Source: a virus. From it: a stretch of 64,000 bases of DNA. The notes beneath the pieces were generated by a model. It searched no databases. It worked only from the letters and a program-made list of their open reading frames with translations, and was not told the origin of the DNA. Position 1 is the first letter of the stretch, and each line of letters starts with the position of its first letter. Shown here in pieces: positions 4,829 to 38,857 of the stretch. The DNA lies in the IMG/VR virus record IMGVR_UViG_3300045988_126550, positions 64,001-128,000 of that record; one strand, given 5' to 3'. Made by a program: the position numbers and the translations under genes.

Positions 4829-5434
4829 ATGTCTGTAATTCGTTGTAAAATTCCCTCAAATAGTGTTGAATGGTCAGACCCAAATGGGAAACCCGGAAGA
4901 AAGGATTTTGAAATGGAAAATTACATTATGCTTGATGGTCGTAAGTTTGAACTGGATAGCGTTTTGGCAGAGAAGCTTCGCGCGACTGTCAACAATCAAA
5001 AACTTGAAAACGAAAAGAAAAGGAACCCTTTTGAGCGGCAAAAGAAAGAACTATTCTACTATTTTATCGATATCGATGGCACAGTCGGTGAATATAAAGA
5101 AAAGTTTTATGCAAGCGATGACGACCTTTATAATATTGGCAACTACTGCACTGATAAGAAGCTAATGAGTCAGCGCGCACTTCATGAAACTTTGAATAGA
5201 CTTCTTTGGAGATTTTCTCTTGAGAATGGTGGAGATGGTGAATGGAATGGGAATGATGCCCATTACTATATTACTTTTCAGTCTGGGGTTGGAGAAAAAA
5301 AGTTACAAGTAGACTGGACTTCACAGTGGCGTCATCAAGGAACAGTTTTCTTTTCTTCGAGGTGCGTTGCAGAAAGAGCTATTGACGAAATCGTGAAACC
5401 TTTTATGGTAGAGCATCCTGAATTTGTGTGGTAA
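4829..5434 (+). CDS. hypothetical protein
   Basis: ATG 4829 after aaaggag. Confidence 0.55.
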   Translation: MSVIRCKIPSNSVEWSDPNGKPGRKDFEMENYIMLDGRKFELDSVLAEKLRATVNNQKLENEKKRNPFERQKKELFYYFIDIDGTVGEYKEKFYASDDDLYNIGNYCTDKKLMSQRALHETLNRLLWRFSLENGGDGEWNGNDAHYYITFQSGVGEKKLQVDWTSQWRHQGTVFFSSRCVAERAIDEIVKPFMVEHPEFVW

Positions 5435-6752: not shown

Positions 6753-7334
6753 ATGACAAATGTGTTCAATGGCATGTTCGGAAAGATTGCTCCCGGTATG
6801 TGCCGACTTTCTATGAGCGGAGGAATCGCTGTTAAGACTTCCAATGGCTATAAGAGCTATAATGTGAAGAATGGGCGTCTCACAAATTGTGACAGCTTTG
6901 TTTTTGACATCGGCGAAGAGTTCTTCTTCGTTATGCCAACCAACAAGGTTGAAGTTGGAGACATTATTCTAGTGTCTGGCAAGCCAAAGTGTGTTATTAA
7001 GGCTGAGAAGGAGACCATTACGGTTATTAATTATGAGGATTCTACTGTAGAAACCATCCTCCCTGAGCGTCATGTATTTATGGGAAGTACTTATTTCTAT
7101 GGTAAGATCGTATCTATGTTCGGTAACAATTTTATGAAGGGCAAGAAGGGCATGGACAAGATGATGTCCTATATGATTATGTCCGAAATGATGAAGGGTG
7201 GCAATGGTTCCAGCAACGGAATGAATTCTATGCTTCCTATGATGATGCTTATGAATGGCGGCAATATGTCGGATATGTTCAGCGGCATGTTTGATTTTGA
7301 TATTGATACGTCTGATGAAAGTGAGGTTGAGTAA
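6753..7334 (+). CDS. hypothetical protein with a Met/Gly/Asn-rich low-complexity C-terminus
   Basis: RBS aaggag; C-terminal MMSYMIMSEMMKGGNGSSNGMNSMLPMMMLMNGGNM. Confidence 0.6.
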   Translation: MTNVFNGMFGKIAPGMCRLSMSGGIAVKTSNGYKSYNVKNGRLTNCDSFVFDIGEEFFFVMPTNKVEVGDIILVSGKPKCVIKAEKETITVINYEDSTVETILPERHVFMGSTYFYGKIVSMFGNNFMKGKKGMDKMMSYMIMSEMMKGGNGSSNGMNSMLPMMMLMNGGNMSDMFSGMFDFDIDTSDESEVE

Positions 7335-7336
7335 TT

Positions 7337-8200
7337 ATGGGTGGCGGTTCTTGGACGAGAGATAGCTTTACTAGCTATGTAACTACTGCAAAGTGTGCAA
7401 TGGTAGACGATTTTGGTGTTGTCAGAGGACTAAATAGTGTTCAGGATAATTTTAAGTCGAGATGTCTAGTGGCGGAGCTTAATCCTAAAAATGTTGTTCG
7501 CGAGTGTGTAGATTCCGCAGAACATCCTAATACAAAGCCTGTTATTCTGGCGCTCGATGTAACTGGCAGTATGGGAAGTGCAGCAATGGAAGTTGCAAAG
7601 CAGATCAATGTTGTTATGACAAGCCTATATGAGAAGATGACAGATGTTGAATTTATGATTATGGGTATTGGAGATCTTGCTTATGATAACGCTCCAATTC
7701 AAGCGTCTCAGTTTGAATCAGATATCAGAATCGCAGAACAGCTTGATAAGATTTATTTTGAGGGCGGTGGCGGCGGCAATTCTTATGAGTCCTATACTGC
7801 CGCATGGTATTTTGGGCTTAATCATACCAAGCTAGATTGTTGGAGTCGTGGGCAGAAGGGTGTTATTATTACAATGGGTGATGAACCTTTGAATCCGTAT
7901 CTGCCTAAGAATACTCTATCTGTTGCGACTGGTGATAATCTACAGGATGATGTTGAGACAGCTCAGCTTTATAAGGACGCTTCTGGAAAGTTCGATATCT
8001 ACCATTTGTATGTAAAGCATGGGTATGGTCGTTATGAAGAAGCTGTTAAGGATACTTTCGGCAAGTTTCTTGATGCGAATCATCTCAAGACTACATCTGT
8101 AAATAAGATTGCAGATGATATTATTGAAATTGTAACAAATGCATTTACTGGAAGCGATACAAGTACATTTGTAAATACTAGTGAAGGAATTTCTTGGTAA
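7337..8200 (+). CDS. von Willebrand factor A (vWA) domain protein
   Basis: MIDAS-like ILALDVTGSMGS followed by an alpha/beta pattern. Confidence 0.65.
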   Translation: MGGGSWTRDSFTSYVTTAKCAMVDDFGVVRGLNSVQDNFKSRCLVAELNPKNVVRECVDSAEHPNTKPVILALDVTGSMGSAAMEVAKQINVVMTSLYEKMTDVEFMIMGIGDLAYDNAPIQASQFESDIRIAEQLDKIYFEGGGGGNSYESYTAAWYFGLNHTKLDCWSRGQKGVIITMGDEPLNPYLPKNTLSVATGDNLQDDVETAQLYKDASGKFDIYHLYVKHGYGRYEEAVKDTFGKFLDANHLKTTSVNKIADDIIEIVTNAFTGSDTSTFVNTSEGISW

Positions 8201-8214
8201 GAGGAGATAAACAC

Positions 8215-9363
8215 ATGTCTAATGTTAAAGTAGTAATCGGTAGCAACTTTGGGGACGAAGGAAAAGGATTGATGACTGATTATTTCTGCGCAGAAGCAAA
8301 AAAGCGGAATGAATCCTGTATTGTTGTTTTATCCAATGGCGGAGCACAGAGAGGGCATACTGTGGTTACGCCAGATGGCATTAGACATGTGTTTCATCAT
8401 TTTGGTTCTGGCACTTTTGCAGAAGCCCCTACATATTTTAGCGAGCAATATATTTTAAATCCTATGACTTTTAGAAAAGAGTATGAAGAATTGGATTCTT
8501 TAGGCTTTAAGCCACTCGTTTGTGCGCATTGGAATTGCAGATGGTCAACGCCGTATGATGTGATCGTAAATCAAATTCTTGAAGATAGTCGTGGAGAAAA
8601 TCGACATGGATCTTGTGGCATGGGAATCTGGGAAACTATCTGTAGATATACAAGCGCTGGAGCACCATCATTGCGGCATTTTAATATGATGAGCGAAGAA
8701 TATAAAGTTCAATTTCTCAAAAATATTAGAGATAAATATATGCCGCAGAGATTGGCATCTGCGAACCCAGATGTAGTAAAACAGTGGGAAGAAATTCTAT
8801 ATTCTGATAATCTAATTTATAATTTTATTGATGATATTCAGTTTATGTGCTCACATATTGTTTTTGATTATGGACGCATATTGAGACGATACGACAATGT
8901 TGTATTTGAAAATGGGCAAGGTCTTCTGCTAGATCAGAACCAAACAAGATACGGAGACAATACAACTCCTAGCAATACTGGGATTCAGAACCCACATGTG
9001 ATTATTGAAAAGTATTTATTTGGCGCCAACGTTGAAGTGTGTTATGTTACAAGAACATACCTGACAAGACATGGTGCTGGGGCTTTTGATAGTGAATGTG
9101 ATAAATCTGAAATCAATGACTCTATGGAAGATAGAACTAATGTACCAAATCCGTATCAGGGCAGCATTCGATATGGGAAGTTGGATGTTGATGAACTTGT
9201 AAGCAGAATCAAAAAGGATATTGGTGCGCATTCTTACAATGTATCTTTGGCAGTGACGCATTTGAACGAGTTTGACAACAAAGAGTTATTGGCACTAAAA
9301 GAGCTTAATGTTAAGTATTTGTCTTATAAGGAGACTAGAGAATTGACAGAAAAAATTTTCTGA
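8215..9363 (+). CDS. adenylosuccinate synthetase family protein (short PurA/PurZ-like)
   Basis: GSNFGDEGKG P-loop and NGGAQRGHTVV match PurA GDEGKG / GGxNAGHT. 382 aa, which is shorter than cellular PurA. ATG 8215 after gaggag. Confidence 0.7.
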   Translation: MSNVKVVIGSNFGDEGKGLMTDYFCAEAKKRNESCIVVLSNGGAQRGHTVVTPDGIRHVFHHFGSGTFAEAPTYFSEQYILNPMTFRKEYEELDSLGFKPLVCAHWNCRWSTPYDVIVNQILEDSRGENRHGSCGMGIWETICRYTSAGAPSLRHFNMMSEEYKVQFLKNIRDKYMPQRLASANPDVVKQWEEILYSDNLIYNFIDDIQFMCSHIVFDYGRILRRYDNVVFENGQGLLLDQNQTRYGDNTTPSNTGIQNPHVIIEKYLFGANVEVCYVTRTYLTRHGAGAFDSECDKSEINDSMEDRTNVPNPYQGSIRYGKLDVDELVSRIKKDIGAHSYNVSLAVTHLNEFDNKELLALKELNVKYLSYKETRELTEKIF

Positions 9364-17195: not shown

Positions 17196-17240
17196 TTGAC
17201 AAATGAAGATTCCATGCTATAATAACAATACAAAATTAAT
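17196..17240 (+). promoter_or_regulatory. sigma-A type promoter plus CAATACAAAATTAA element
   Basis: cTTGACAaat, TGcTATAAT ending at 17223, 14-mer at 17227-17240. Confidence 0.75.
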
Positions 17241-17258: not shown

Positions 17259-17432
17259 ATGACAGAGGACAATCGTATTAAGGAAGAAGCCAAGAAGCAG
17301 AGAAATTTTTGGACATGTCCACGACCAGTGACTAAGGTTTTGCGCAACGCTAAGGCATACAACAGGGCCAAGGATCGTAAGGATAAACGATTGTATGAGG
17401 AAGACGTAGAAGATGCTATCGAAGAAAGATAA
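17259..17432 (+). CDS. 57-aa basic hypothetical protein (not in the track)
   Basis: ATG 17259 after aaaggag. Translation MTEDNRIKEEAKKQRNFW... Confidence 0.5.
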   Translation: MTEDNRIKEEAKKQRNFWTCPRPVTKVLRNAKAYNRAKDRKDKRLYEEDVEDAIEER

Positions 17433-17826
17433 AAGTTATTTTAGGGCGGCTCAGGCAGTTAGCACACTATCAGATTTCAAAAGAATAAACGTAGGAGCGG
17501 TCTTGGTTTATAAGCACCGAATAATTTCAAGTTCTTGTAATTCTCAGCGGACACATCCTTTACAGCGCAAGTTGAATAAAGAAAGGTTCAACGAAGACAC
17601 TCCTGCGAAATTACATGCCGAAGTTAACTGCCTTATTTCATTACTTGGAAATAAAGATATTAAATGGAAAGACTGTGAACTCTATGTGTATAGAGAATAT
17701 AAGCGTGGAGGGTTGGCTATGAGTCGGCCTTGTCCATCCTGCCAAAAATTAATTAAAGAACTTGGCATTAAGACTGTCCATTACACTACTGACGGTGGGT
17801 ATGCCACAGAAGAATTTGAAATTTAA
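17413..17826 (+). CDS. dCMP deaminase
   Basis: HAEVNCL and PCPSCQKLI zinc-binding motifs. Confidence 0.85.
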   Translation: MLSKKDKSYFRAAQAVSTLSDFKRINVGAVLVYKHRIISSSCNSQRTHPLQRKLNKERFNEDTPAKLHAEVNCLISLLGNKDIKWKDCELYVYREYKRGGLAMSRPCPSCQKLIKELGIKTVHYTTDGGYATEEFEI

Positions 17827-17836
17827 GGAGACAATT

Positions 17837-17995
17837 ATGAAAGAAGCATATTCCGATCTATGCAAAGCATGTTATATTCGCATTATGAAGCCTTCAAAAA
17901 AGGAGATTAAGAAAATTGTAATGACACCATATGAAACAGAATGCGAGTGTTGTCATAAGACCAAACAGGTGGTCGATTATGTGGAGGACGATTAA
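17837..17995 (+). CDS. small Cys-rich protein
   Basis: ATG 17837 after aaggag. CKAC...CECC. Confidence 0.5.
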   Translation: MKEAYSDLCKACYIRIMKPSKKEIKKIVMTPYETECECCHKTKQVVDYVEDD

Positions 17996-18228
17996 TGAAA
18001 GGTCTTCCATCTAAAGAGATTGTGATGACAGAGATTAAATCTCTAAAAGGAGAAACATTTTATATTACAACAACTGCATTACGCGATACATATTATATAT
18101 ACAAAATTGCAAATAATGTTGCTACAAAGCTTGGGAGCAATAAAAGCCCTTTGGTATTGGAGGATAAATATATCGGAGAACGAGAAAAAGCATTAAAAAG
18201 ATTGGAGAAAATGATAGATGAGCAATGA
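17995..18228 (+). CDS. hypothetical protein
   Basis: TAATG overlap with the upstream gene. Confidence 0.5.
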   Translation: MKGLPSKEIVMTEIKSLKGETFYITTTALRDTYYIYKIANNVATKLGSNKSPLVLEDKYIGEREKALKRLEKMIDEQ

Positions 18229-18616
18229 ATATAAAGATTATTATGAAGACCTTTATTGTGAGTTTGAAGACAGAGTTGAGGCACTAGATTTTCTACCGGA
18301 TGGCTGGGTTAATAGTTTTGTGCCAAAGCTGAAAGAAGAACTCTTTGGTATTATTGGTAGTTATACTGAAAACTTTGAAATTGTACAGGCGAAGGAAAAG
18401 TGGGGAAAACTAAGAGTGTATTGGAGCTGGGAAGACAAGGATTATTCCGACCTAGAAGCTGCTGATATGAATGAATTATATGACAAGATTGAAAATACAC
18501 TTGAAAAATACGCCACTATTAGCCGGAAAACTTGTGCGGTGTGCGGAAAGTCAGCAACGTCATATACGACTGGATGGGTGCTTCCTGTTTGTGAAGAATG
18601 CAAGGAGGAGGCGTAA
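18218..18616 (+). CDS. hypothetical protein with a C-terminal CxxC...CxxC
   Basis: RBS ggag. CAVCG...CEEC. Confidence 0.5.
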   Translation: MSNEYKDYYEDLYCEFEDRVEALDFLPDGWVNSFVPKLKEELFGIIGSYTENFEIVQAKEKWGKLRVYWSWEDKDYSDLEAADMNELYDKIENTLEKYATISRKTCAVCGKSATSYTTGWVLPVCEECKEEA

Positions 18617-18618
18617 TT

Positions 18619-19413
18619 ATGACAGAAGAAAGAATGAAGTTGGTAGAGCCAATTCTAAATACATTTGAAAATGAAGATATTAAAGAATTTGCTATTGTGC
18701 TACTAGACAATTTGCCAGAGTATATTTGGAGCGTACCAGCTTCAAGTACTGGTAAATATCATCCGCAATATAGCTTGGGTCTAGGTGGTTTGATGAGACA
18801 TCAGATTGCAGTTGTAAGATTCCTGAACTTTTTCTTTGAGCTTGAGCAATACCAGAACGTTATTAATAGCAGAGAGCGTGACTTAATGCGTATAGCTGGT
18901 CTTGTACATGATGGACGTAAGAGCGGCTCTCAACAGGATTTTGAGCGTTCTAAATATACCAAGTTTGACCATCCTAAGCTAATGGCAGATGTTATTACAT
19001 CATATTCTGGCAAATATTTAACAGTAGAAGAGCTTGCATTTGTTTCACGTGCTATTAATAGCCACATGGGACAATGGAATATTGATAAGAAAACTGGCAT
19101 AGAACTTCCTAAACCTTCAAATGTATATGAAGAGCTTGTTCACTTAGCCGACTATCTAGCAAGTCGTAAGTCTTTGACTATGGATTTTGAAAATATTGAA
19201 GTTCCGCGCACTGTGGTTATTAATCCAGAAGAATATGTAATGCAATTCGGCAAGTACAAGGGACAGAAAATTATTGATGTGTATCGTGAACATCCAGACT
19301 ATTTGCAATGGTGTGAGGAAAATATTGGTCGCAGAGATGTTCTAGATGCTATTGCAGCTTGTAAGAAGAAAGCGGAAGAAAAGATTGAGGCTGATGACGA
19401 TATTGATTTATAA
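18619..19413 (+). CDS. HD-domain phosphohydrolase with a C-terminal KYKGQ...YLQW module
   Basis: ATG 18619 after aaggaggagg. H...GLVHDGRK HD motif. Confidence 0.65.
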   Translation: MTEERMKLVEPILNTFENEDIKEFAIVLLDNLPEYIWSVPASSTGKYHPQYSLGLGGLMRHQIAVVRFLNFFFELEQYQNVINSRERDLMRIAGLVHDGRKSGSQQDFERSKYTKFDHPKLMADVITSYSGKYLTVEELAFVSRAINSHMGQWNIDKKTGIELPKPSNVYEELVHLADYLASRKSLTMDFENIEVPRTVVINPEEYVMQFGKYKGQKIIDVYREHPDYLQWCEENIGRRDVLDAIAACKKKAEEKIEADDDIDL

Positions 19414-19428
19414 GGAGAATTAAGGCAC

Positions 19429-19908
19429 ATGGGAACTAACTTCTATATGATTACAAAGAACAAAGAAATGGCTCAGCGGTATGCACCATATTCTTATGAG
19501 CTTACGGATACGCCATATTTCGGATATGAGATTCACGTAGCCAAGACTAGTTTTGGCTGGTTGCCGCTTTTCCAAGAGCATAAAGATGGTATTAACTCTG
19601 TAGCTGAGTATAAAGTGGCATATGATACAAATGAGTTTAAAATTTATGATGAATACGGATGTGAATACAATTGGGATGCCTTTGATGATAGAGTGCTAAA
19701 GTTCAATGGCGGGGTTCTTGGGGTACAGGAGCCGAAGAAGATTGAGCAAAACAAATATTTTCGATGGTATGACAAGAGCATGCCAGACTATTGCCCTGTT
19801 AGTCATATTAGTGGAAGTCTGCAGAGCTATAAGTTTGATGGTTTGTTTGCGAATGATTATTTCGTTGACGCTGATGGATTTGAATTTTCAAGGAGTGAAT
19901 TTTCGTAA
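19429..19908 (+). CDS. hypothetical protein
   Basis: RBS aaggag. Confidence 0.5.
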   Translation: MGTNFYMITKNKEMAQRYAPYSYELTDTPYFGYEIHVAKTSFGWLPLFQEHKDGINSVAEYKVAYDTNEFKIYDEYGCEYNWDAFDDRVLKFNGGVLGVQEPKKIEQNKYFRWYDKSMPDYCPVSHISGSLQSYKFDGLFANDYFVDADGFEFSRSEFS

Positions 19909-21023
19909 TGTATCATCTTGAACTAAGAGACTTCATTCTTTCTCATGAAAACTGGGAAGAACTACTCACAGCTGATCCTTACAACCTAAAGATTTCTCGT
20001 GATGGCAATTATATCATGTTCAAGTATAATCAAATCTCTTCTGATTTTACAATTCCTCTAGTTCGTGAAGCACGTGGAATTATTTTCAGAGAGAGTGATT
20101 GGGAATGTGTCTGCGAAAAATTTACAAAATTCGGCAATTACGGCGAGTCTTATTGCCCAGACATTGATTGGGCAACTGCTTCTGTGCAGGAAAAAGTTGA
20201 TGGATCGCTTATTGGCATGTTTTATGATAATGGATGGCATATTTGTACCAATGGTACAATTGATGCCTTTAAAGCGGAACTTAATGATGTGAAGTATCAG
20301 AATTTTGGGCAGCTTGTCCTTGCGGCAATTCATCGTGTATTTGAAGACGAGCATAAGTTCTTTACGATGCTAGATCCAAAATGTACATATATGTTTGAAC
20401 TCGTGTCTCCTTATAACCGTGTTGTAATTCCGTATGAAGACACTAAGCTATATTTTCTTGGTATACGTGATATGGAAGATGGGAAAGAATGGAATCCAGA
20501 AGATTCTGATATAAGCTATGATTTTGAAATGCCTAAGCGTTATTCTCTTCATTCTCTTGAAGATGTACAGAAGGCAGCAAATGCACTTCCTTGGGACGAA
20601 GAAGGTTATGTGGTATGCGACGCAAATTTCAACAGAGTAAAGATTAAGTCTGGTGCTTACGTTATGGCACATTATGCTCGTAATAATGGAGTAGTCAATA
20701 CAGAGCGTCTTGTTCAGATTATACTGGATGGAGAGCAGGAAGAGTTCCTTACTTATGCATCCGATTATACTGACGAGTTAAAGAAAGTGGGAAAAGCAAT
20801 GTATGAGATTGGGTATAAAGCATTTGATAAGCTGAGAGAAATTTTTAACATGAAAGAGTTTGAAACTCGTGGTGCTTATGCTCGTGAAGTTATGAAATGC
20901 CCAATGTATATGAAAGACTTCCTATTCCATTGTTTTGATTCTAGAATCTTTTGGGATTATGCAAAGTCTTGGGATGCAAATAAATGGGTTAAAGCTATTA
21001 ATGAATTAAATGGAGGTATTTAA
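19908..21023 (+). CDS. ATP-dependent RNA ligase (T4 Rnl1-like)
   Basis: Nucleotidyl-transferase motif I QEKVDGSL, upstream LVREARGIIF, size ~370 aa. Confidence 0.75.
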   Translation: MYHLELRDFILSHENWEELLTADPYNLKISRDGNYIMFKYNQISSDFTIPLVREARGIIFRESDWECVCEKFTKFGNYGESYCPDIDWATASVQEKVDGSLIGMFYDNGWHICTNGTIDAFKAELNDVKYQNFGQLVLAAIHRVFEDEHKFFTMLDPKCTYMFELVSPYNRVVIPYEDTKLYFLGIRDMEDGKEWNPEDSDISYDFEMPKRYSLHSLEDVQKAANALPWDEEGYVVCDANFNRVKIKSGAYVMAHYARNNGVVNTERLVQIILDGEQEEFLTYASDYTDELKKVGKAMYEIGYKAFDKLREIFNMKEFETRGAYAREVMKCPMYMKDFLFHCFDSRIFWDYAKSWDANKWVKAINELNGGI

Positions 21024-21024
21024 T

Positions 21025-21291
21025 ATGAAGAATAATATTGGGCCAATTATTGGAATTATTGGAGTAGTTATTTTGTGGATTCTTTCTCCTATCATCATCT
21101 TCGGTGCCGGTTGGTTTGGTGGTTGGATTCTGATGAAAATTGTTGGTGGAGCAATTGCATCTGGTCTAAACACACTATTTGGAACGACTAGATTTGTTCC
21201 AGAATTAATTCCTGTTGTATGTGGAGCTCTAGCAGTTATTGGAAGTTTCTTTAAGGCTACTGTAAGTAGTAGCAATGTGATGACAAAATGA
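21025..21291 (+). CDS. small membrane protein
   Basis: ATG 21025 after ggagg; three hydrophobic segments. Confidence 0.5.
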   Translation: MKNNIGPIIGIIGVVILWILSPIIIFGAGWFGGWILMKIVGGAIASGLNTLFGTTRFVPELIPVVCGALAVIGSFFKATVSSSNVMTK

Positions 21292-22097
21292 ATTATCATT
21301 CAGATCAGTGGATTATGGATAGGGTTCAAGAGCACTATAATGAGGCTCTTGAATCCTTTCCGAAGGACAGAATTATTGGCATCTTCTATCAAGGCAGTGG
21401 CAATTATGGGCTTGATTATGAAGGTTCAGATGTTGACACCAAACTGATTGTAACACCAACATTTAAGGATATTGCAATGAATAAGAATCCCGTTAGTACA
21501 ACTCATATTCGAGCCAACGACGAACATACAGACTGGAAGGACATTAGGCTCTATATTCAGACATTTAGGAAGCAGAACTTGAATTTTCTAGAAATTCTTT
21601 TCACAACATACAAAGTCCTAAATCCTATGTATGAGGAACAGTGGAACAGACTTATTGATGCCAGAGAAGGTATTGCACGTTACTCTCCCATTCAAGCCAT
21701 TAAGTCTATGAGAGGAATCGCTAAAGAAAAGTATTTTGCAATGGAACATCATTATCCGTCTCGTATGGAGTGGATTAACAAATTTGGATACGATCCAAAA
21801 CAACTACACCATTTATTACGTGTAGAGGAGTATATTGAAAGATATATTAATGGTGAGTCCTATGAGAAATGTCTACAATCAAAAATGCCGGAGTTTCTCA
21901 AACAGGTAAAGACTGGAGAGTCTTTTGATTTGGGCACAGCAAGAATTGTGGCGGAAAAGTCAATTGGTCATATTGACGAAATGTGTGATAAGTTCTTAAA
22001 AAGAGAATGGAGCGTTGACGAAATTATTAATGCTTTGTTAGACAGTGTGCAATATGAAATTATGAGGATTGCAATTAAGAAAGAGATTGGTGGTTAA
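21288..22097 (+). CDS. pol-beta-fold nucleotidyltransferase (RlaP-like, RNA-repair associated)
   Basis: YQGSGNYGLDYEGSDVDTK equals GS-x(9-13)-DxD. ATGA overlap with the upstream gene. Confidence 0.6.
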   Translation: MNYHSDQWIMDRVQEHYNEALESFPKDRIIGIFYQGSGNYGLDYEGSDVDTKLIVTPTFKDIAMNKNPVSTTHIRANDEHTDWKDIRLYIQTFRKQNLNFLEILFTTYKVLNPMYEEQWNRLIDAREGIARYSPIQAIKSMRGIAKEKYFAMEHHYPSRMEWINKFGYDPKQLHHLLRVEEYIERYINGESYEKCLQSKMPEFLKQVKTGESFDLGTARIVAEKSIGHIDEMCDKFLKREWSVDEIINALLDSVQYEIMRIAIKKEIGG

Positions 22098-22718
22098 ATG
22101 ATTAACATTCGTCAAGACTTGATTCAAAAGGAGTTTGAAAAAGGTTGTACCAATGGGCTTACATTTCGAAAATTAAAGCCTAGCAATAGATTTATTGATA
22201 AGCTTTTTAATCATTACTATGTTGCCGAGCACACAGAACATTTCTATGATTCTGAGCCGGAATATGATGATGAAGAATTCAATATGTATATGGATTACGC
22301 TTATATTCATCATAGAATAAATCCTACTTCTGGCACTGCTCTTTTTAATACAATTCTTAATTCTGAAGAAATAGCAAAAGAACAAGAAGACTTTCGTTTT
22401 TCAAAAGAAGAACACACAATAGAAGAACTAAAGCAAGCGTATGATAAAATTATACAACAGAGAAAAGATTATGAGCTACACAGAATTGAATTTAACAACT
22501 GGATAGAGCCTTATTTTAAGGGTAATTGGAGAATGTCTCAGAAAGATGTTGACAAAATTAGCAGAGAGCATCTTGAATACACAAAGAAATGTGGAGTAAG
22601 TTATAATGGCAGACTTTACATTGCAGAAAAAGAAGATTCGATTTTTATTTATTACTACGGCAGAGATTTTGCAATGGTAGATTATTGGTGGATTTTTAAG
22701 AGAAGAAGGAGAAAATAA
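22098..22718 (+). CDS. hypothetical protein
   Basis: Tightly packed ORF with no recognised motif. Confidence 0.45.
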   Translation: MINIRQDLIQKEFEKGCTNGLTFRKLKPSNRFIDKLFNHYYVAEHTEHFYDSEPEYDDEEFNMYMDYAYIHHRINPTSGTALFNTILNSEEIAKEQEDFRFSKEEHTIEELKQAYDKIIQQRKDYELHRIEFNNWIEPYFKGNWRMSQKDVDKISREHLEYTKKCGVSYNGRLYIAEKEDSIFIYYYGRDFAMVDYWWIFKRRRRK

Positions 22719-23623
22719 TGGTTAAGTGTTTTGTTATGTGTGGACTCCCCGCAAGCGGAAAGAGTTGGCAAGCCAAGAAACTTGCCGAGGAATATGATGC
22801 AGAAATTTTCTCTAGTGACTCACTTCGAGAGGAAATGTTCGGAGATGTGAATCATCAGGCAGACAACGATGCTCTGTTCAAGGAACTACATAAGCGTATT
22901 AGAGAGCGTCTTGCTTCTGGCAAGAATGCCATTTATGACGCCTGCAATATCAGTTATAAGCGCCGTATGGAATTCCTTAAGTCTCTTAACAAAATTCCTT
23001 GTGAGAAAATTGCAATCCTCATGGCAACGCCTTATGAAGTCTGTCTTGAACGTAACACACAACGAGAGCGTAAAGTCCCAGAACATGTTATTAAACGTAT
23101 GTATATGAGCTGGAATAGTCCATATTGGTATGAAGGTTGGGACGATATTCAGATTGTATATTCAGAAGGAGCAGAAGGAAGCTACGGAGGAGTAGGTGAT
23201 TGGGTTGAGTCTGTTATGGATTACAACCAACATAACAGCCATCATTCTTTAACACTTGGGGAACATTGTCTCAAAACATTCGAATACTTAAATTCATTGC
23301 CAGTTGCATTCTGGGAACTTAGAACTGCGGCGTTGATACATGATTGTGGCAAATGCAAAAGTGCTACATATATCAATAGTAAGGGCGAACAAACGGATGA
23401 ATGCCATTATTATAATCACCAATTTTGTGGATCATACGACAGCTTGTTCTTCAGCGGTATAGATAGACATCTTTATATTGCGCAACTTATTCAATGGCAT
23501 ATGAGAGCGTACCTTGCGTGGGAGCATTCTGAAAAAGCAATGCAGAAGGATAGAAAACTTCTTGGGAAGACTTTATTTAATGATATTTGTTTGCTTCACG
23601 AAGCAGACCTTGCAGCGCATTAA
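22718..23623 (+). CDS. P-loop polynucleotide-kinase-like domain fused to an HD phosphohydrolase domain
   Basis: Walker A CGLPASGKSW at the N-terminus; AALIHDCGK...YNHQFCGSY in the C-terminal half. Confidence 0.7.
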   Translation: MVKCFVMCGLPASGKSWQAKKLAEEYDAEIFSSDSLREEMFGDVNHQADNDALFKELHKRIRERLASGKNAIYDACNISYKRRMEFLKSLNKIPCEKIAILMATPYEVCLERNTQRERKVPEHVIKRMYMSWNSPYWYEGWDDIQIVYSEGAEGSYGGVGDWVESVMDYNQHNSHHSLTLGEHCLKTFEYLNSLPVAFWELRTAALIHDCGKCKSATYINSKGEQTDECHYYNHQFCGSYDSLFFSGIDRHLYIAQLIQWHMRAYLAWEHSEKAMQKDRKLLGKTLFNDICLLHEADLAAH

Positions 23624-23629
23624 CCAATT

Positions 23630-23655
23630 GGTACGGCATTTTCGCCGTACCTTTT
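23630..23655 (+). terminator. rho-independent terminator
   Basis: GGTACGGC-attttc-GCCGTACC followed by TTTT. Confidence 0.8.
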
Positions 23656-23670
23656 GTGCATGTTGACAAC

Positions 23671-23729
23671 TTGACAAATAGCAAATTCATGCTATAATAA
23701 TGGCAGAAACAAGAACAATACAAAATTAA
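23671..23729 (+). promoter_or_regulatory. sigma-A type promoter plus CAATACAAAATTAA element
   Basis: cTTGACAaat (a second TTGACA lies 8 nt upstream), TGcTATAAT ending at 23698, 14-mer at 23716-23729. Confidence 0.75.
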
Positions 23730-23743
23730 AGGAGGATAAATAT

Positions 23744-24325
23744 ATGAGAACTATTAGAAGAGGAGTGTTTGAATCGAACTCGTCCAGCACACACAGCATT
23801 GCAATTAGTAAAGAAAAGGTTCCAAATGTAGCCGGTAGACATGTTTATTTTGGAGCTGGTGAGTACGGTTGGGAACAAGGTTGCGTAGGAGACACCGCAT
23901 CATATTTGCATACGGCAATTGTTGACTCTTCTACTCCTGCACAATACGAGGAGAGAATCAATAAGATTAAAGAAATTCTTGACAAGTATGGGGTGCAATA
24001 TAAATTCGCGCCAGTTGAATATCAGAAGTCTGAGTACAATCCCGATTATGAATATATTAAATTTGCATCTCCTAGTTATAGATATGCGTATGTTGATCAC
24101 GCAGGAGAGTGTGCAAAACTAATTAATGCACTGCTTTCAAACGAAGACCTTCTAATTAGATATCTTTTTGGCAATAGTTGCATTTATACCGGCAATGATA
24201 ATTCTGATGACGAAGACAGTATGTGCTATTGCGCAGAGGCAACTATTTGGGATGATAATTATAAAACTATCCCAAACCCAAATCACGACGCAGAACATTA
24301 TGATTACTTTTTTAAGGGGAATTGA
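23744..24325 (+). CDS. hypothetical protein, NSSSTHS-motif family, paralog A
   Basis: N-terminus MRTIRRGVFESNSSSTHSIAIS. Confidence 0.6.
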   Translation: MRTIRRGVFESNSSSTHSIAISKEKVPNVAGRHVYFGAGEYGWEQGCVGDTASYLHTAIVDSSTPAQYEERINKIKEILDKYGVQYKFAPVEYQKSEYNPDYEYIKFASPSYRYAYVDHAGECAKLINALLSNEDLLIRYLFGNSCIYTGNDNSDDEDSMCYCAEATIWDDNYKTIPNPNHDAEHYDYFFKGN

Positions 24326-24327
24326 TT

Positions 24328-24738
24328 ATGAGACAGATTAGAAAGAATGTATTTGAAACAAATAGTTCTTCTACTCATTCACTAACAATGTGTACAAAAG
24401 AAGAATATGATAATTGGAAAAGCGGAAAACTTATGTTTGATATAGATAGTAAGAAATTTGTATCTCCGCTAGAAGTAACAAGTAAAGATTTCAAGGAAGC
24501 GGAAATTAATTATGAATCCAGCAAACAAAAATATCAGAAAAATTGGGATCAGCTGACTAAAGAAGAACAAGAAGAATATACACTTGGGTATATTAAAGAG
24601 AATAAGTCAATGTATGAAATTGTAACATATTCTGAGTGGCTAGATAGAAATGATTATCTAGACACATTCTATAGAGAATATACTACTAAAAACAACGAAA
24701 GAATTGTGGCTTTCGGCGCTTATGGCTACGATGGTTAA
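24328..24738 (+). CDS. hypothetical protein, NSSSTHS-motif family, paralog B
   Basis: N-terminus MRQIRKNVFETNSSSTHSLTMC. ATG 24328 lies 7 nt after aagggga. Confidence 0.6.
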   Translation: MRQIRKNVFETNSSSTHSLTMCTKEEYDNWKSGKLMFDIDSKKFVSPLEVTSKDFKEAEINYESSKQKYQKNWDQLTKEEQEEYTLGYIKENKSMYEIVTYSEWLDRNDYLDTFYREYTTKNNERIVAFGAYGYDG

Positions 24739-24748
24739 GGAGGAAAAT

Positions 24749-25648
24749 ATGAATCTTATTGGCAAGTATCAGAATGGGAATTATACCGTGAGTTTGTACG
24801 ATGATGGAACTAAGATTCGTGAGAATGATTTGGATAATCTGACTCCTGCTTTTGCAGAGAACTGTGATGTTAAAATTACAGATAAGTGTGATGGAGGTTG
24901 CGCCTTCTGCTATGAGGGATGTACTGCTAATGGTAAACACGGGGATATTCTTAATCCTCAGTTTCTAGATACTCTGCATCAATATACTGAGCTTGCTATC
25001 AATGGCAACGACCTTTCTCATCCAGATTTGGTTCCTTTCATGTACAAGATGAAAGAGAAGAATATCATTCTCAATATGACGGTCAATCAGATTCATTTTG
25101 AGAAGCACTTTGATACAATCAAGGAATGGATTGATAAGAAGTTAATTTATGGGCTTGGCATCTCTCTACGTAAGCCGACAGATGAATTCATTGATATGGT
25201 TAAGCAGATTCCAAACGCCGTTATTCATGTAATCAATGGTATTGTTTCTATACCAGATCTTGATGCTCTTTCTAGAAATGGGCTTAAAATTCTTATTCTT
25301 GGATATAAGAATCTAAGACGTGGTGAAAGTTATTATGAGAGTCACAATGAAAGTGTACTTGGATTACAGGAAGATTTAAACCGCTACCTTTTCCCTGAAA
25401 TTATCGGGCACAGTTGGTTTGACGTTGTGAGTTTTGATAATCTAGCAATCGAACAGCTTCATGTTAAAGAACATATGTCTAAGGAAGAATGGGATAGTTT
25501 CTTTATGGGCGAAGACGGCGATTATACTTTCTATATTGATATGGTCGAAGGAATGTTCGCAAAAGATTCCTTGTCTATGGAACGTTATCCTCTTATGGAT
25601 AATATTGATGATATGTTTAACTTTTTGAGAAATAAGAAGGAGAAGTAA
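24749..25648 (+). CDS. radical SAM enzyme, specific function unknown
   Basis: ATG 24749 after aaggagg. CDGGCAFC equals the CxxxCxxC cluster motif. Confidence 0.7.
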   Translation: MNLIGKYQNGNYTVSLYDDGTKIRENDLDNLTPAFAENCDVKITDKCDGGCAFCYEGCTANGKHGDILNPQFLDTLHQYTELAINGNDLSHPDLVPFMYKMKEKNIILNMTVNQIHFEKHFDTIKEWIDKKLIYGLGISLRKPTDEFIDMVKQIPNAVIHVINGIVSIPDLDALSRNGLKILILGYKNLRRGESYYESHNESVLGLQEDLNRYLFPEIIGHSWFDVVSFDNLAIEQLHVKEHMSKEEWDSFFMGEDGDYTFYIDMVEGMFAKDSLSMERYPLMDNIDDMFNFLRNKKEK

Positions 25649-25650
25649 TT

Positions 25651-26484
25651 ATGGATAAGACATCTCTTGGTGATAGAATGAAAAACAACTATGAAAATGT
25701 TAATAGATTTTATTTAACAAGAAGAATACCAGTTATTATTAGAATGGATATGAAGGCCGGTCATACTTTTACTAGAGGAATGAAGAAGCCGTTTGATGAT
25801 ATTTTCGTAAAGACAATGCAAGAGACTATGAAGTATCTCTGTGAAAACATTCAGGGTTGTGTGCTTGGTTACACTCAGAGCGACGAGATTTCTCTTGTAC
25901 TGACAGACTATGCAGGGTTGACAACAGATGCATGGTTTGGAAACAATCTACAGAAGATGTGTAGCGTATCTGCGAGTATGGCAACATTGGCATTTAATAA
26001 AGCATTTAACGACAATATTGTAAAGTATATTGACAGTTATTTTGATACCGATTGTGGGGTTACGAAGGATTTAGCTGAATATACAAAGATTCTCATTAAT
26101 GCAAGAAATAAAGGCGCAATGTTTGACTCTCGTGTTTTTACAATTCCTAAAGAGGAGGCATGCAACTACTTCATCTGGAGACAGCAAGATGCCACTCGCA
26201 ATTCCATCCAGTCTGTGGGTCAAGCAAACTTTAGTGATAAAGAATTGCATAAGAAATCCACTAAAGACATTCAAGATATGCTTATGACTCAGAAAGGTAT
26301 CAACTGGAATGACTATGCAACGACTCTAAAGCGTGGTAGCTGTTGTATTAAAGCCGATGATAGTCTTACCGAGTATGACGAGGTGGGAAATATTTGTGGT
26401 TATATCCAGAGAAGTAAGTGGGTAATCGATAATAAAATTCCTATCTTTACTCAGGACAGAAACTATGTTGAAAAGCTAATTTGA
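25651..26484 (+). CDS. Thg1-like protein (tRNA 3'-5' nucleotidyltransferase, TLP)
   Basis: GDRMKNNYE, PVIIRMDMKAGHTFTRG, KPFDD and GYTQSDEISLVL match the Thg1/TLP N-terminal catalytic core. Confidence 0.8.
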   Translation: MDKTSLGDRMKNNYENVNRFYLTRRIPVIIRMDMKAGHTFTRGMKKPFDDIFVKTMQETMKYLCENIQGCVLGYTQSDEISLVLTDYAGLTTDAWFGNNLQKMCSVSASMATLAFNKAFNDNIVKYIDSYFDTDCGVTKDLAEYTKILINARNKGAMFDSRVFTIPKEEACNYFIWRQQDATRNSIQSVGQANFSDKELHKKSTKDIQDMLMTQKGINWNDYATTLKRGSCCIKADDSLTEYDEVGNICGYIQRSKWVIDNKIPIFTQDRNYVEKLI

Positions 26485-38834: not shown

Positions 38835-38857
38835 TATATTAAGAAAGAGGTGTGCTT

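What the first reader, a model, noticed from the sequence alone, without database searches (positions are those of the whole stretch)
18619..26484. Unusually complete RNA end-healing and sealing gene set next to the interrupted tRNAs
Within 8 kb lie an HD phosphohydrolase, a T4 Rnl1-like RNA ligase (KVDGS), a pol-beta-fold nucleotidyltransferase (GS-x-DxD, of the kind linked to RNA-repair operons), a P-loop kinase fused to an HD domain (a healing-enzyme architecture) and a Thg1-like 3'-5' polymerase that repairs tRNA 5' ends.

The T4 Pnkp plus Rnl1 precedent repairs tRNA-Lys cut by the PrrC anticodon nuclease. This phage also carries tRNA-Lys(UUU), Gln, Asn and Leu, which are typical anticodon-nuclease targets.

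The same chemistry (kinase, phosphoesterase, ligase) is what eukaryotic Trl1-type tRNA splicing uses. The set could therefore also mature the interrupted tRNAs if a site-specific endonuclease exists. No endonuclease is identified here, and the hypothetical genes at 19429, 22098 and 23744-24738 are candidates.
Basis: partly seen in the sequence, partly recalled or inferred. Interest (0 to 1): 0.75.

Follow-up and report, generated by a model that had tools for sequence, protein, structure and literature searches.

The report
Phage tRNA repair cassette beside nested tRNAs
This phage carries a real but familiar kit of enzymes that mend broken transfer RNAs; it matters because the phage's own tRNA genes are interrupted by small tRNA-shaped inserts, which such a kit could help remove.

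Summary
Window 18.6-26.5 kb encodes an HD/ExoX_C protein, a T4 Rnl1-type RNA ligase with all catalytic motifs, a RlaP-like pol-beta nucleotidyltransferase, a polynucleotide-kinase-HD fusion and a bacterial-type Thg1-like protein. Consensus promoters and one terminator split them into two units: HD ... Rnl1, RlaP, Pnk-HD in one, and the Thg1-like gene in the next.

The core (19429, ligase, RlaP, 22098, Pnk-HD) is kept in all eight close relatives. The ligase family, the phosphoesterase module and the HD gene are swapped between relatives. The same ligase-RlaP-Pnk-HD triad exists in cultured Bacillales phages. This is therefore a new member of a known kind of phage RNA-repair cassette, not an unprecedented set.

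The neighbouring interrupted tRNAs are real. Comparison with uninterrupted alleles shows a 47-nt insert exactly between U34 and A35 of tRNA-Leu(UAA). That insert and a dozen others in relatives are tRNA-like: an acceptor-like stem, a T-arm-like hairpin and a 3' NCCA. No bulge-helix-bulge motif and no candidate endonuclease was found.

The most novel reading still open is that tRNA end-processing enzymes cut the insert out and the phage ligase reseals the anticodon loop. I put that at about 0.3. It is untested.

The parts
17196..17223 (+). Consensus extended -10 promoter (TTGACA-16-TG-TATAAT, 12/12) that opens transcription unit 1
18598..19413 (+). HD-domain phosphohydrolase with an ExoX-like C-terminal domain; substrate unknown. 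It sits next to the ligase even in relatives that carry a different ligase family.
19429..19908 (+). 159-aa protein with no known domain, whose stop overlaps the ligase start. The family is restricted to this phage group. It accompanies either ligase type.
19908..21023 (+). T4 Rnl1-type ATP-dependent RNA ligase (lysine nucleophile in KVDGS; motifs III, IV and V present)
21010..21291 (+). 93-aa hydrophobic small protein (phrog_30257), overlapping both neighbours; poorly conserved in relatives
21288..22097 (+). RlaP-like pol-beta nucleotidyltransferase (GS...DVD); predicted to add 1-2 nucleotides to RNA 3'-OH ends
22098..22718 (+). 206-aa conserved protein of unknown function, packed tightly between RlaP and Pnk-HD (85-90% identical in all 8 relatives)
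22718..23623 (+). Pnk-HD end-healing enzyme: N-terminal 5'-OH polynucleotide kinase (P-loop) plus a C-terminal HD phosphoesterase
23630..23651 (+). Intrinsic terminator (8-bp GC-rich stem followed by a T run) that closes unit 1
23671..23698 (+). Second consensus extended -10 promoter, which opens unit 2
23744..24325 (+). 193-aa protein with the N-terminal motif VFE(S/T)NSSSTHS. The model is confident and matches no solved structure. Function unknown.
24322..24738 (+). 138-aa paralogue of 23744 with the same N-terminal motif
24704..25648 (+). Radical-SAM-like protein (CDGGCAFC = CX3CX2C; phrog_16999 at 1.8e-37). Its role is unknown and its start codon is uncertain.
25651..26484 (+). Bacterial-type Thg1-like protein (TLP), a 3'-5' polymerase family whose known activity is repair of tRNA 5' ends
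10340..11926 (+). Ro60-like RNA-binding protein (DUF2828 + DUF7788/vWA). The best fold matches are the TROVE domain, phage phiLo Ro60 and the Ro autoantigen.
12036..12164 (+). tRNA-Leu(UAA) interrupted at U34|A35 by a 47-nt tRNA-like minihelix (12071-12117) that ends in ACCA
10020..10136 (+). tRNA-Asn(GUU) interrupted at positions 26-28 by a 43-nt element (10049-10091) carrying AAACAGCAA
9888..10011 (+). tRNA-like gene with an insert (9925-9976 by the CCA rule) that ends in CCA. The resulting loop UAUUAUA is non-canonical.

Best explanation
The stretch is a phage tRNA-repair ('heal-and-seal') cassette expressed from host-type early promoters. I infer the following steps from homology; none has been shown for this phage.

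1. A tRNA broken in or near its anticodon loop carries 5'-OH and 2',3'-cyclic or 3'-phosphate ends.
2. The kinase half of Pnk-HD phosphorylates the 5' end, and its HD half removes the 3' phosphate.
3. If nucleotides were lost, the RlaP-like enzyme adds one or two to the 3'-OH.
4. The Rnl1-type ligase adenylylates the 5'-phosphate and seals the nick.
5. Separately, the Thg1-like protein rebuilds truncated tRNA 5' ends by templated 3'-5' addition.

The main source of breaks is most likely host tRNA-cleaving defence nucleases, as in the T4 Pnkp/Rnl1 versus PrrC case. The same ligase may also rejoin the halves of the phage's own interrupted tRNAs (see the rival explanations).
For: - Domain and motif identities are established.
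- The kinase is closest to the RNA-repair kinase of C. thermocellum Pnkp (E 1.3e-13; TIGR04075 at 8e-17).
- The Thg1-like protein is closest to the B. thuringiensis TLP (E 1.5e-65).
- The NTase is homologous to a protein that passes the RlaP threshold. RlaP enzymes add 1-2 NMP to damaged RNA 3' ends and restore tRNA function (PMC12776372).
- Ligase, RlaP and Pnk-HD share one promoter-terminator unit, with overlapping or abutting reading frames.
- The core is conserved in 8 of 8 relatives.
- The same triad occurs in Lysinibacillus phage LC76P1, and Pnk-HD sits beside an RNA ligase in the Tsamsa-like Bacillus phages.
- The enzymes are swapped non-orthologously while the function is kept. Rnl1 is replaced by a PHA02142/PF09414-type ligase in the same slot. 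Pnk-HD is replaced by Pnk with another C-terminal module, or by a 29%-identical Pnk-HD. HD is replaced by a calcineurin-type esterase in another lineage. Such turnover is typical of genes caught in host-virus conflict.
- A Ro60-like protein and a tRNA array lie 8 kb upstream. This echoes the bacterial Ro60 / Y RNA / RtcB repair operon.
- All these parts are listed as phage RNA-repair components in PMC7824862.
Against: - No activity has been measured.
- The host and its nucleases are unknown. There is no close match in cultured phages and no relative in GTDB genomes.
- The HD half of Pnk-HD and the RlaP assignment are below Pfam thresholds in this protein itself.
- The score against the NCBIfam T4 RnlA equivalog is far below its cut-off (67.8 against 242).
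- The free-standing HD protein could serve nucleotide metabolism instead. Its unit also holds a dCMP deaminase, and an NAD-dependent DNA ligase and NrdD lie downstream.
- The Thg1-like gene is in another transcription unit and is missing from 3 of 8 relatives.
- Three conserved genes inside the cassette remain unexplained.
Confidence: 0.7

Rival explanations
1. The ligase's main job is tRNA-in-tRNA splicing, with the healing and nucleotide-adding enzymes as helpers or proofreaders. Under this reading, the inserts in the phage's tRNAs are themselves tRNAs or tRNA-like minihelices. Host RNase P cuts at the 5' end of the insert, and a 3' end-processing nuclease cuts just after its CCA. That leaves the outer tRNA nicked in its anticodon loop with 3'-OH and 5'-phosphate ends, which is the preferred substrate of an Rnl1-type ligase. 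This reading is compatible with the best explanation as a second substrate class.
For: - Uninterrupted alleles fix the insert boundaries exactly. The cases are Leu(UAA) at U34|A35, Gln(UUG) at two different sites, and Lys(UUU).
- In 11 of 12 analysed cases there is a boundary choice that gives a canonical 7-nt loop and an insert ending in N-CCA. The twelfth insert ends in ACAA.
- The first 6-7 nt of each insert pair with the 6-7 nt that precede NCCA. Together with the adjacent hairpin this forms an 11-12-bp helix. In it, 98.6% of cells are paired, against 32-46% when the partners are slid. Ten of 11 pairs show compensatory changes.
- Some inserts are whole tRNAs, including a tRNA(CUA).
- The junctions lie in the anticodon loop, where T4 Rnl1 acts (established knowledge).
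- Every relative seen that has such inserts also has an RNA ligase, of one family or another. An unrelated lineage with the same Leu(UAA) insert has Pnk, a phosphoesterase and Rnl1 near its tRNA array.
- The inserts are far too short to self-splice, and no ribozyme or group I model matched them.
Against: - No spliced product has been seen.
- Co-occurrence is weak evidence, because Rnl1 is found in 1030 cultured phage records, most with no known tRNA introns.
- Relative L005 keeps the core cassette but shows only uninterrupted tRNAs in the part that could be read.
- If both cuts leave 3'-OH and 5'-P ends, the kinase-phosphoesterase would be superfluous.
- A nuclease that cuts exactly after an encoded CCA is not universal in bacteria.
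- Window tRNA-like gene 9888-10011 gives a non-canonical loop after removal of its insert.
- The insert in tRNA-Asn (10049-10091) lacks both the stem and the CCA.
Confidence: 0.3
2. [quoted passage not shown] The full kinase, esterase and ligase set then heals and seals those ends.
For: - The full healing chemistry is encoded.
- Genes 19429 and 22098 are tightly coupled to the ligase and to Pnk-HD, and are conserved in 8 of 8 relatives.
- The 19429 family stays beside the ligase even where the ligase family is changed.
- The 23744 family has an invariant polar cluster that looks like an active site: E10, N12, S13-15, H17, D118, H119, N151, D152, N153.
Against: - None of the candidates matches any nuclease family or fold.
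- No EndA/TSEN-type domain was found in the ORFs scanned, and the inserts have no bulge-helix-bulge.
- 23744/24322 are absent from relative L005.
Confidence: 0.12
3. The genes are not a functional RNA system. On this reading, the ligase homologue serves as a tail-fibre attachment factor, as T4 gp63 also does. The HD proteins and the kinase act on nucleotides or DNA ends, as part of the surrounding nucleotide-metabolism and replication region.
For: - PHROG names the ligase family 'RNA ligase and tail fiber protein attachment catalyst'.
- The neighbours include a dCMP deaminase, NrdD, an NAD-dependent DNA ligase and a PurZ-like enzyme.
- Runella HD-Pnk also heals DNA ends (title of Munir and Shuman 2017, as quoted).
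Against: - The ligase slot can be filled by an unrelated RNA-ligase family that has no tail-fibre role.
- The RlaP and Thg1-like families are RNA-specific in the cases studied.
- The triad recurs as a unit in unrelated phages.
Confidence: 0.06

Closest known systems
Phage T4 Pnkp + Rnl1 tRNA repair, which counters the PrrC anticodon nuclease
   Same: It has an Rnl1-type ligase with the same catalytic motifs and a 5'-kinase / 3'-phosphoesterase healing enzyme. It is phage-encoded, and a tRNA-Lys(UUU) gene is present.
   Different: The phosphoesterase here is an HD domain, not the HAD/DxDxT phosphatase of T4 Pnkp. The kinase is closest to the bacterial Pnkp type. There are extra RlaP, Thg1-like and Ro60-like components. 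The host nuclease is unknown.
RNA ligase - RlaP - polynucleotide kinase cassettes of phages and bacteria (Burroughs and Aravind 2016; Iyer et al. 2021, PMC7824862), for example Lysinibacillus phage LC76P1 and the Tsamsa-like Bacillus phages
   Same: The gene triad and gene order are the same. The NTase is 34% identical and Pnk-HD 33% identical to the LC76P1 proteins.
   Different: The ligase is of the Rnl1 type here, but a PHA02142-OB/PF09414 type in LC76P1 and in some relatives of this phage. There are two extra conserved small genes (19429, 22098). The cassette lies next to interrupted tRNAs.
Runella slithyformis HD-Pnk with its adjacent ligase (Munir and Shuman 2017; PMC6097658)
   Same: A bifunctional HD phosphoesterase plus P-loop 5'-OH kinase is encoded beside a polynucleotide ligase.
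   Different: The domain order is reversed: kinase first, then HD. There is no Tpt1 or methyltransferase-HIT partner. The system is a phage one.
Salmonella rsr-yrlBA-rtcBA operon (Ro60, tRNA-like Y RNAs, RtcB ligase)
   Same: A Ro60-type protein is encoded beside tRNA-like non-coding RNAs and near an RNA ligase.
   Different: The ligase here works by ATP-dependent 3'-OH/5'-P chemistry, not the RtcB mechanism. The Ro-like protein belongs to the DUF2828 family. The Rfam YrlA match is only 23.6 bits against a threshold of 69.
Fungal and plant Trl1 tRNA splicing (kinase, cyclic phosphodiesterase and ligase acting after the TSEN endonuclease)
   Same: The three chemical activities are the same, and the substrates would be tRNA halves that meet in the anticodon loop.
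   Different: There is no TSEN/EndA homologue, no bulge-helix-bulge and no 2H phosphodiesterase or Tpt1. The inserts are tRNA-like with CCA ends, not canonical 37/38 introns.
'Enigmatic' tRNA introns of the Lak megaphages (Devoto et al., bioRxiv 10.1101/356790)
   Same: They are short inserts in phage tRNA genes. Some are predicted to be tRNAs themselves, and their boundaries were refined by comparison with uninterrupted alleles.
   Different: The phage lineage is different and its genome is much smaller (about 160 kb). Here the acceptor-like stem and the NCCA rule are documented, and a ligase cassette lies nearby. Neither study has shown the mechanism.

Membership tests
T4 Rnl1 RNA ligase family (PF09511 / TIGR02308) | Adenylyltransferase motif I, KxDG, with the lysine nucleophile | tested here: met
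   EKVDGS aligns with T4 TKEDGS (Lys99).
T4 Rnl1 RNA ligase family (PF09511 / TIGR02308) | Motifs III, IV and V (T4 Glu159, Glu227, Lys240/242) | tested here: met
   FELVSP, EGYVV and KIKS sit at the aligned positions. The residue numbers for T4 come from my own knowledge.
T4 Rnl1 RNA ligase family (PF09511 / TIGR02308) | Score above the curated family thresholds | tested here: inconclusive
   Pfam PF09511 scores 58.5 bits, above its cut-off of 28.3. The NCBIfam equivalog TIGR02308 scores only 67.8 bits against a cut-off of 242, although the alignment spans model positions 30-358 of 373, which includes the C-terminal domain.
T4 Rnl1 RNA ligase family (PF09511 / TIGR02308) | Seals 3'-OH/5'-PO4 breaks in tRNA anticodon loops | not testable with these tools
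   This needs an enzyme assay.
RlaP nucleotidyltransferase (PF10127) | Pol-beta fold signature hG[GS] ... DxD | tested here: met
   YQGSGNYGLDYEGSDVDT.
RlaP nucleotidyltransferase (PF10127) | Pfam gathering score | tested here: not met
   The window protein scores 14.3 bits against a cut-off of 23. Its homologue in phage LC76P1 (34% identity, E 2e-30) scores 28.3 bits. The homologue in relative L025 scores 18.6 bits.
RlaP nucleotidyltransferase (PF10127) | Encoded next to an RNA ligase | tested here: met
   Only a 93-aa ORF separates it from Rnl1. This adjacency is kept in 8 of 8 relatives and in L025 and LC76P1, whichever ligase family is present.
Polynucleotide kinase-phosphatase healing enzymes (bacterial Pnkp / HD-Pnk) | P-loop 5'-OH polynucleotide kinase domain | tested here: met
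   GLPASGKS is present. AAA_33 scores 1.2e-24, the CthPnkp kinase 4GP7 scores 1.3e-13, and TIGR04075 scores 8e-17 over the kinase part only.
Polynucleotide kinase-phosphatase healing enzymes (bacterial Pnkp / HD-Pnk) | Fused 2',3'-phosphoesterase domain | tested here: inconclusive
   The HD hit is 19.2 bits against a cut-off of 22, but the H...HD residues are present (HHSLTLGEH, IHDCGK). The full-length homologue in LC76P1 has HD at E 5.7e-8.
Polynucleotide kinase-phosphatase healing enzymes (bacterial Pnkp / HD-Pnk) | Runella HD-Pnk architecture (HD at the N-terminus, kinase at the C-terminus) | tested here: not met
   The order here is kinase then HD.
Thg1 / Thg1-like proteins (PF04446) | Thg1 catalytic domain above the threshold, with the SDE carboxylates | tested here: met
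   The score is 89.4 bits against a cut-off of 29.2. QSDEIS is conserved. The match to BtTLP 4KGK is 1.5e-65.
Thg1 / Thg1-like proteins (PF04446) | Templated 3'-5' addition that repairs tRNA 5' ends | not testable with these tools
   This is inferred from the characterised bacterial TLPs (my own knowledge).
Ro60 / TROVE proteins | TROVE ring plus vWA domain fold | tested here: inconclusive
   The top three Foldseek PDB hits are the TROVE domain 9kop (2.3e-5), phage phiLo Ro60 (1.8e-4) and Ro autoantigen 1yvr (3.5e-4), each over 425-522 columns. However, the model is weak (pLDDT 63) and TM-scores are only 0.28-0.35. The Pfam hits are DUF2828 + DUF7788, not TROVE.
Archaeal/eukaryal protein-spliced tRNA introns (EndA/TSEN) | Bulge-helix-bulge motif at the splice sites | tested here: not met
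   Both junctions lie at the same end of a 6-7-bp stem, with a 4-nt 3' tail, and there are no paired 3-nt bulges. This was judged by inspection and from the predicted folds.
Archaeal/eukaryal protein-spliced tRNA introns (EndA/TSEN) | Splicing endonuclease gene | tested here: not met
   No such domain was found in any ORF scanned between 16 and 31 kb. The rest of the window was only sampled.
Self-splicing group I tRNA introns | Ribozyme core of about 200 nt or more that matches the Rfam model | tested here: not met
   The window inserts are 43-52 nt, and no Rfam hit other than tRNA was found.

The most novel reading that the evidence does not exclude
A protein-dependent tRNA splicing pathway exists in a bacterial virus. 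In this reading, tRNA genes are interrupted in the anticodon loop by a second tRNA, or by a cut-down tRNA-like minihelix, whose ends are exactly mature tRNA ends (5' nucleotide +1 and 3' NCCA). The inner unit is released by ordinary tRNA end-processing: RNase P at its 5' end and a cut after its CCA. The phage RNA ligase then rejoins the two halves of the outer tRNA, with Pnk-HD, RlaP and the Thg1-like protein correcting imperfect ends. That would explain the 'enigmatic' phage tRNA introns and give phage RNA ligases a housekeeping role besides counter-defence.
Probability: 0.3. Interest if true: 0.9.

Novelty: new member of a known kind. Interest (0 to 1): 0.6.

Why it matters
Taken alone, the cassette adds one more example, from an abundant uncultured family of gut-type phages of about 160 kb. 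It supports the rule that tRNA-rich phages carry ligase, RlaP and kinase-esterase repair sets. It also shows clearly that the function is kept while the enzyme families are exchanged.

Its real value is the context. The same genomes carry many tRNA genes split by tRNA-shaped inserts with CCA ends, and nobody knows how phage tRNA introns are removed. This locus offers a small, defined set of parts to test the question directly: one pre-tRNA of 129 nt, one ligase and one healing enzyme.

If the ligase does join the halves, that would be the first protein-dependent tRNA splicing described in the bacterial world. It would also give phage RNA ligases a second reason to exist.

Tried and rejected
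- **Close cultured relative.** Megablast of the 7.9-kb stretch against 50,697 phage records found nothing.
- **Inserts as group I introns or known ribozymes.** Rfam at gathering and at permissive thresholds gave only tRNA hits. The long inserts in relatives (224-870 nt, some with an HNH ORF) also gave no group I hit, so I do not call them group I.
- **Interrupted tRNAs as YrlA-type Y RNAs.** The only support is a 23.6-bit hit against a threshold of 69, resting on a palindromic TTGCAA. I rejected this for tRNA-Leu and tRNA-Asn, because removing the insert gives perfect tRNAs. It remains open for the three ACAGCAA stem-loops at 10143-10341.
- **tRNA-like gene 9888-10011 as tRNA-Gly(UCC), as ARAGORN and the NCCAA string suggest.** Rejected: the CCA belongs to the tail of the insert, and no single deletion gives a canonical loop.
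- **Archaeal bulge-helix-bulge.** Not present.
- **Endonuclease candidates.** ORFs 19429, 22098, 23744 and 24322 gave nothing in Pfam, NCBIfam, PHROGs or PDB sequence searches. A pLDDT-90.7 model of 23744 matched nothing in the PDB (best E 0.35) and only one uncharacterised viral protein.
- **Solved-structure relatives.** None was found for the HD protein or the radical-SAM-like protein.
- **Host identification.** A scan of GTDB genomes for close Rnl1 relatives found none.
- **Not done.** I ran no genome-wide association test between inserts and ligases, because only about 10 kb of flank per contig could be read.

Full report
**What is there**

The window comes from an uncultured tailed phage. 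It has no near match among 50,697 deposited phage genomes. It does have at least 20 relatives of 150-177 kb in IMG/VR and ENA assemblies. All genes between 16 and 31 kb lie on the + strand.

- **18598-19413** is an HD-domain protein (PF01966, E 6e-7, above threshold) with an ExoX-like C-terminal domain.
- **19908-21023** is an Rnl1-type RNA ligase.
  - PF09511 scores E 1.1e-15 and phrog_562 E 1.3e-48.
  - It aligns to the T4 Rnl1 structure 2C5U at E 1.9e-17.
  - The alignment places KVDGS, FELVSP, EGYVV and KIKS on the T4 nucleotidyl-transfer motifs.
- **21288-22097** carries the pol-beta signature GS...DVD and matches phrog_388 (1.9e-18).
  - Its own RlaP hit is sub-threshold (14.3 bits against 23).
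  - It is 34% identical (E 2e-30) to a Lysinibacillus phage LC76P1 protein that passes the RlaP threshold.
- **22718-23623** is a kinase-HD fusion.
  - It has an N-terminal P-loop kinase (AAA_33 at 1.2e-24).
  - Its nearest solved relative is the RNA-repair kinase of Clostridium thermocellum Pnkp (1.3e-13).
  - The C-terminal H...HD module is just below the Pfam threshold.
- **25651-26484** is a bacterial-type Thg1-like protein, 1.5e-65 to the Bacillus thuringiensis TLP structure 4KGK.

**How it is organised**

Three perfect extended -10 promoters (12/12 consensus) lie at 17196, 23671 and 31311. One strong terminator lies at 23630-23651, seven bases after the Pnk-HD stop.

- **Unit 1** runs from 17259 to 23623. 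It holds small ORFs, a dCMP deaminase, HD/ExoX_C, ORF 19429, Rnl1, a 93-aa hydrophobic ORF, the RlaP-like NTase, ORF 22098 and Pnk-HD. Their stops and starts overlap or abut.
- **Unit 2** starts with two paralogous proteins (23744, 24322) that share the motif VFE(S/T)NSSSTHS. Next come a radical-SAM-like protein (CX3CX2C) and the Thg1-like gene. The unit runs on to an NAD-dependent DNA ligase.

The Thg1-like gene is therefore a neighbour of the ligase operon, not a member of it.

**Conservation and turnover**

- In eight related contigs the core (19429, Rnl1, NTase, 22098, Pnk-X) is always present.
- The accessories vary. The Thg1-like gene is missing from three relatives. HD/ExoX_C exists as two alleles that are only 37% identical, and one relative has a Band_7 gene in its place.
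- The healing enzyme exists in three forms:
  - the 301-aa Pnk-HD;
  - a 293-aa Pnk-HD that is 29% identical;
  - a 472-aa kinase with a different C-terminal half.
- In a more distant relative (L025), and in family member L036, the ligase slot holds an unrelated RNA ligase of the PHA02142-OB/PF09414 type. It is 44% identical to the LC76P1 ligase (E 7e-119). It is still flanked by HD/ExoX_C (both relatives), the 19429 homologue (L036) and RlaP (L025).
- A different phage lineage (L053) has a stand-alone Pnk, a calcineurin-type esterase and Rnl1.

The function is kept while the family is exchanged. That pattern is expected for genes engaged in host-virus conflict.

**Comparison with what is known**

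- Ligase, RlaP and Pnk-HD occur in this order in Lysinibacillus phage LC76P1.
- Pnk-HD lies beside an RNA ligase in the Tsamsa/PBC2 group of Bacillus phages.
- Thg1-like genes occur in 163 deposited phage records and Rnl1 in 1030.
- The survey of jumbo phages by Iyer and colleagues lists RNA ligases, polynucleotide kinases, HD/HAD/calcineurin esterases, RlaP, Thg1 and Ro/TROVE proteins as parts of phage RNA repair (PMC7824862).
- RlaP enzymes have now been shown to add one or two nucleotides to damaged RNA 3' ends and to be needed to restore heavily damaged tRNA (PMC12776372).
- Runella HD-Pnk has the same two activities in the opposite domain order (PMC6097658).

The gene set is therefore a new member of a known kind, not an unusual one.

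**Most likely mechanism**

By homology, the kinase phosphorylates 5'-OH ends and the HD module removes 2',3'-cyclic or 3' phosphates. RlaP restores lost 3' nucleotides, Rnl1 seals the break, and the Thg1-like enzyme rebuilds 5' ends. None of these steps has been shown for this phage. The T4 Pnkp/Rnl1 versus PrrC case is the model (established knowledge), and the enzyme turnover fits a counter-defence role. My confidence is 0.7 for tRNA repair as the biochemical function.

**The surroundings change the picture**

Between the interrupted tRNAs lies ORF 10340-11926 (DUF2828 + DUF7788, phrog_850 'RNA-binding protein'). A modest AlphaFold model of it (pLDDT 63) finds the TROVE domain, phage phiLo Ro60 and the Ro autoantigen as its three best PDB matches. 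It is a Ro60-like protein. This recalls the bacterial Ro60 / Y RNA / RtcB repair operon.

**The interrupted tRNAs are real**

- tRNA-Leu(UAA) at 12036-12164 differs from uninterrupted alleles in two relatives by exactly 47 nt inserted between U34 and A35.
- Removing 43 nt at positions 26-28 of 10020-10136 gives a perfect tRNA-Asn(GUU).
- Relatives carry 17-21 tRNAs, and many different ones are interrupted.
- Uninterrupted alleles fix the boundaries for Gln(UUG) at two sites and for Lys(UUU).

**The inserts are tRNA-like**

- In 11 of 12 distinct anticodon-loop inserts there is a boundary that gives a canonical loop (U33, purine 37) and an insert ending in N-CCA. The twelfth ends in ACAA.
- Where an uninterrupted allele exists, that boundary is the correct one.
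- The first 6-7 nt of each insert pair with the 6-7 nt that precede NCCA. An adjacent 5-6-bp hairpin stacks on this stem.
- Across 13 inserts, 98.6% of the cells of this 11-bp helix are paired, against 32-46% when the partners are slid. Ten of 11 pairs show compensatory changes. I built that alignment by a fixed positional rule, which favours the structure somewhat.
- The inserts form a size series:
  - whole tRNAs of 75-77 nt, one of which ARAGORN calls tRNA(CUA);
  - cloverleaf-like inserts of 73-76 nt;
  - minihelices of 47-56 nt, such as the one in the window.
- They have no bulge-helix-bulge, are far too short for self-splicing, and match no Rfam ribozyme.

An unknown site-specific endonuclease is not required. 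An insert that looks like a tRNA acceptor/T-arm minihelix with 3' NCCA is the classical substrate of RNase P at its 5' end, and of tRNA 3'-end processing at its 3' end (established knowledge).

Cuts of that kind would leave the outer tRNA nicked in its anticodon loop with 3'-OH and 5'-phosphate ends. That is exactly what Rnl1 seals, with no healing needed. This is inference only.

- **For it:** every insert-bearing relative seen also has some RNA ligase. An unrelated lineage with the same Leu(UAA) insert also has Pnk, an esterase and Rnl1 near its tRNAs.
- **Against it:**
  - Rnl1 is common in phages with no known introns.
  - One relative keeps the cassette but shows only intact tRNAs in the part read.
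  - The kinase-esterase would be unnecessary.
  - A nuclease that cuts right after an encoded CCA is not universal.
  - Two of the three window inserts do not fit cleanly.

I put this reading at about 0.3.

**The proposed endonuclease candidates remain unassigned**

- ORF 19429 belongs to a family of about 200 proteins confined to this phage group.
- ORF 22098 belongs to a small family with a conserved C-terminal half and no Pfam match in 36 members.
- ORF 23744 gives a confident model (pLDDT 90.7, pTM 0.87). It resembles nothing in the PDB and only one uncharacterised viral protein.

**Verdict**

- The cassette itself is ordinary for a tRNA-rich phage.
- Its position beside tRNA-in-tRNA genes makes the open question of how phage tRNA introns are removed directly testable.

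Noticed in passing
window 12090-12106; loci L027-L062: The hairpin GTAGG-GGCAGCA-CCTAC from the tRNA-Leu insert occurs in 39 IMG/VR stretches. About 18 of these are stand-alone tRNA-like genes in unrelated phage contigs. Their D-loop reads AACAGCA or AGCAGCA and their T-loop reads GGCAGCA, so they lack G18G19 and T-Psi-C. Their anticodons are mostly Lys, Gln, Ile(UAU) or UUA. This looks like a class of phage tRNAs with a non-canonical elbow.
   Followed up: partly
window 9948-12951 (+ strand); stem-loops at 10143-10197, 10208-10275, 10292-10341: The motif AACAGCAA is enriched: 11 copies against 3.7 expected, and none of 100 shuffles reached 11. It clusters around the Ro60-like gene. Three tandem stem-loops that open with (T)NACAGCAA lie just upstream of that gene and are conserved in all relatives. 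In relative L025 the equivalent modules enclose T-arms or whole tRNA-like units. They may be Y-RNA-like partners of the Ro-like protein.
   Followed up: partly
window 12634-13076 and 13380-13735: These non-coding stretches between tRNA genes are conserved. The second is 96-97% identical in more than ten relatives, which is higher than many protein genes. Both fold more stably than mononucleotide shuffles (z -3.9 and -2.6). No Rfam family matches.
   Followed up: partly
window 13077-13172: tRNA-Ile(UAU) carries a 22-nt extra stretch in the variable region. This is unusual for an Ile tRNA. It is present in several relatives, and no close uninterrupted allele was found.
   Followed up: partly
window 8194-9363: This ORF matches phrog_1211 (a PurZ-type adenylosuccinate synthetase homologue, E 4e-65). 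The phage DNA may therefore contain 2-aminoadenine. The neighbouring ORFs 6753-8200 were not examined for DatZ or MazZ.
   Followed up: no
L011:8166-8319, L012:8212-8288, L011:5524-5668: Relatives encode tRNAs with CUA and UUA anticodons (amber and ochre suppressor types). One is nested inside tRNA-Ile(UAU). This hints at stop-codon reassignment in part of the family.
   Followed up: no
L016:7645-8493, L025:11862-12817, L002:1495-1803: At or near the same anticodon-loop site of tRNA-Leu(UAA), other relatives carry long inserts of 224-870 nt. L025's encodes an HNH endonuclease and L016's carries an ORF. These look like group I introns, but no Rfam model matched them.
   Followed up: partly
window 23744-24325 and 24322-24738: These two paralogous small proteins have an invariant polar cluster (E10, N12, S13-15, H17, D118, H119, N151-D152-N153). 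The model is confident (pLDDT 90.7) and matches no solved structure. They may represent a new enzyme fold.
   Followed up: yes
L008:16357-17169; L025:7006-7830: Homing-endonuclease genes (LAGLIDADG, GIY-YIG) are inserted in relatives inside or beside the repair and tRNA region. This shows that the island is a hot spot for mobile elements.
   Followed up: no
L025:1858-2184, 4396-5124, 7976-8091: A more distant relative also carries a cREC cyclic-phosphate-processing receiver domain (E 2.6e-16) and a calcineurin-like phosphoesterase upstream of its tRNA array, and a 'drum' RNA (Rfam RF02958, 56.5 bits) inside it.
   Followed up: no
window 38852-40000; 42587-63893 (- strand): There is a tyrosine-integrase homologue (phrog_1, 3e-72), which suggests a temperate lifestyle. 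Three giant ORFs of 1638, 2839 and 2141 aa lie in the tail region. None was examined further.
   Followed up: no
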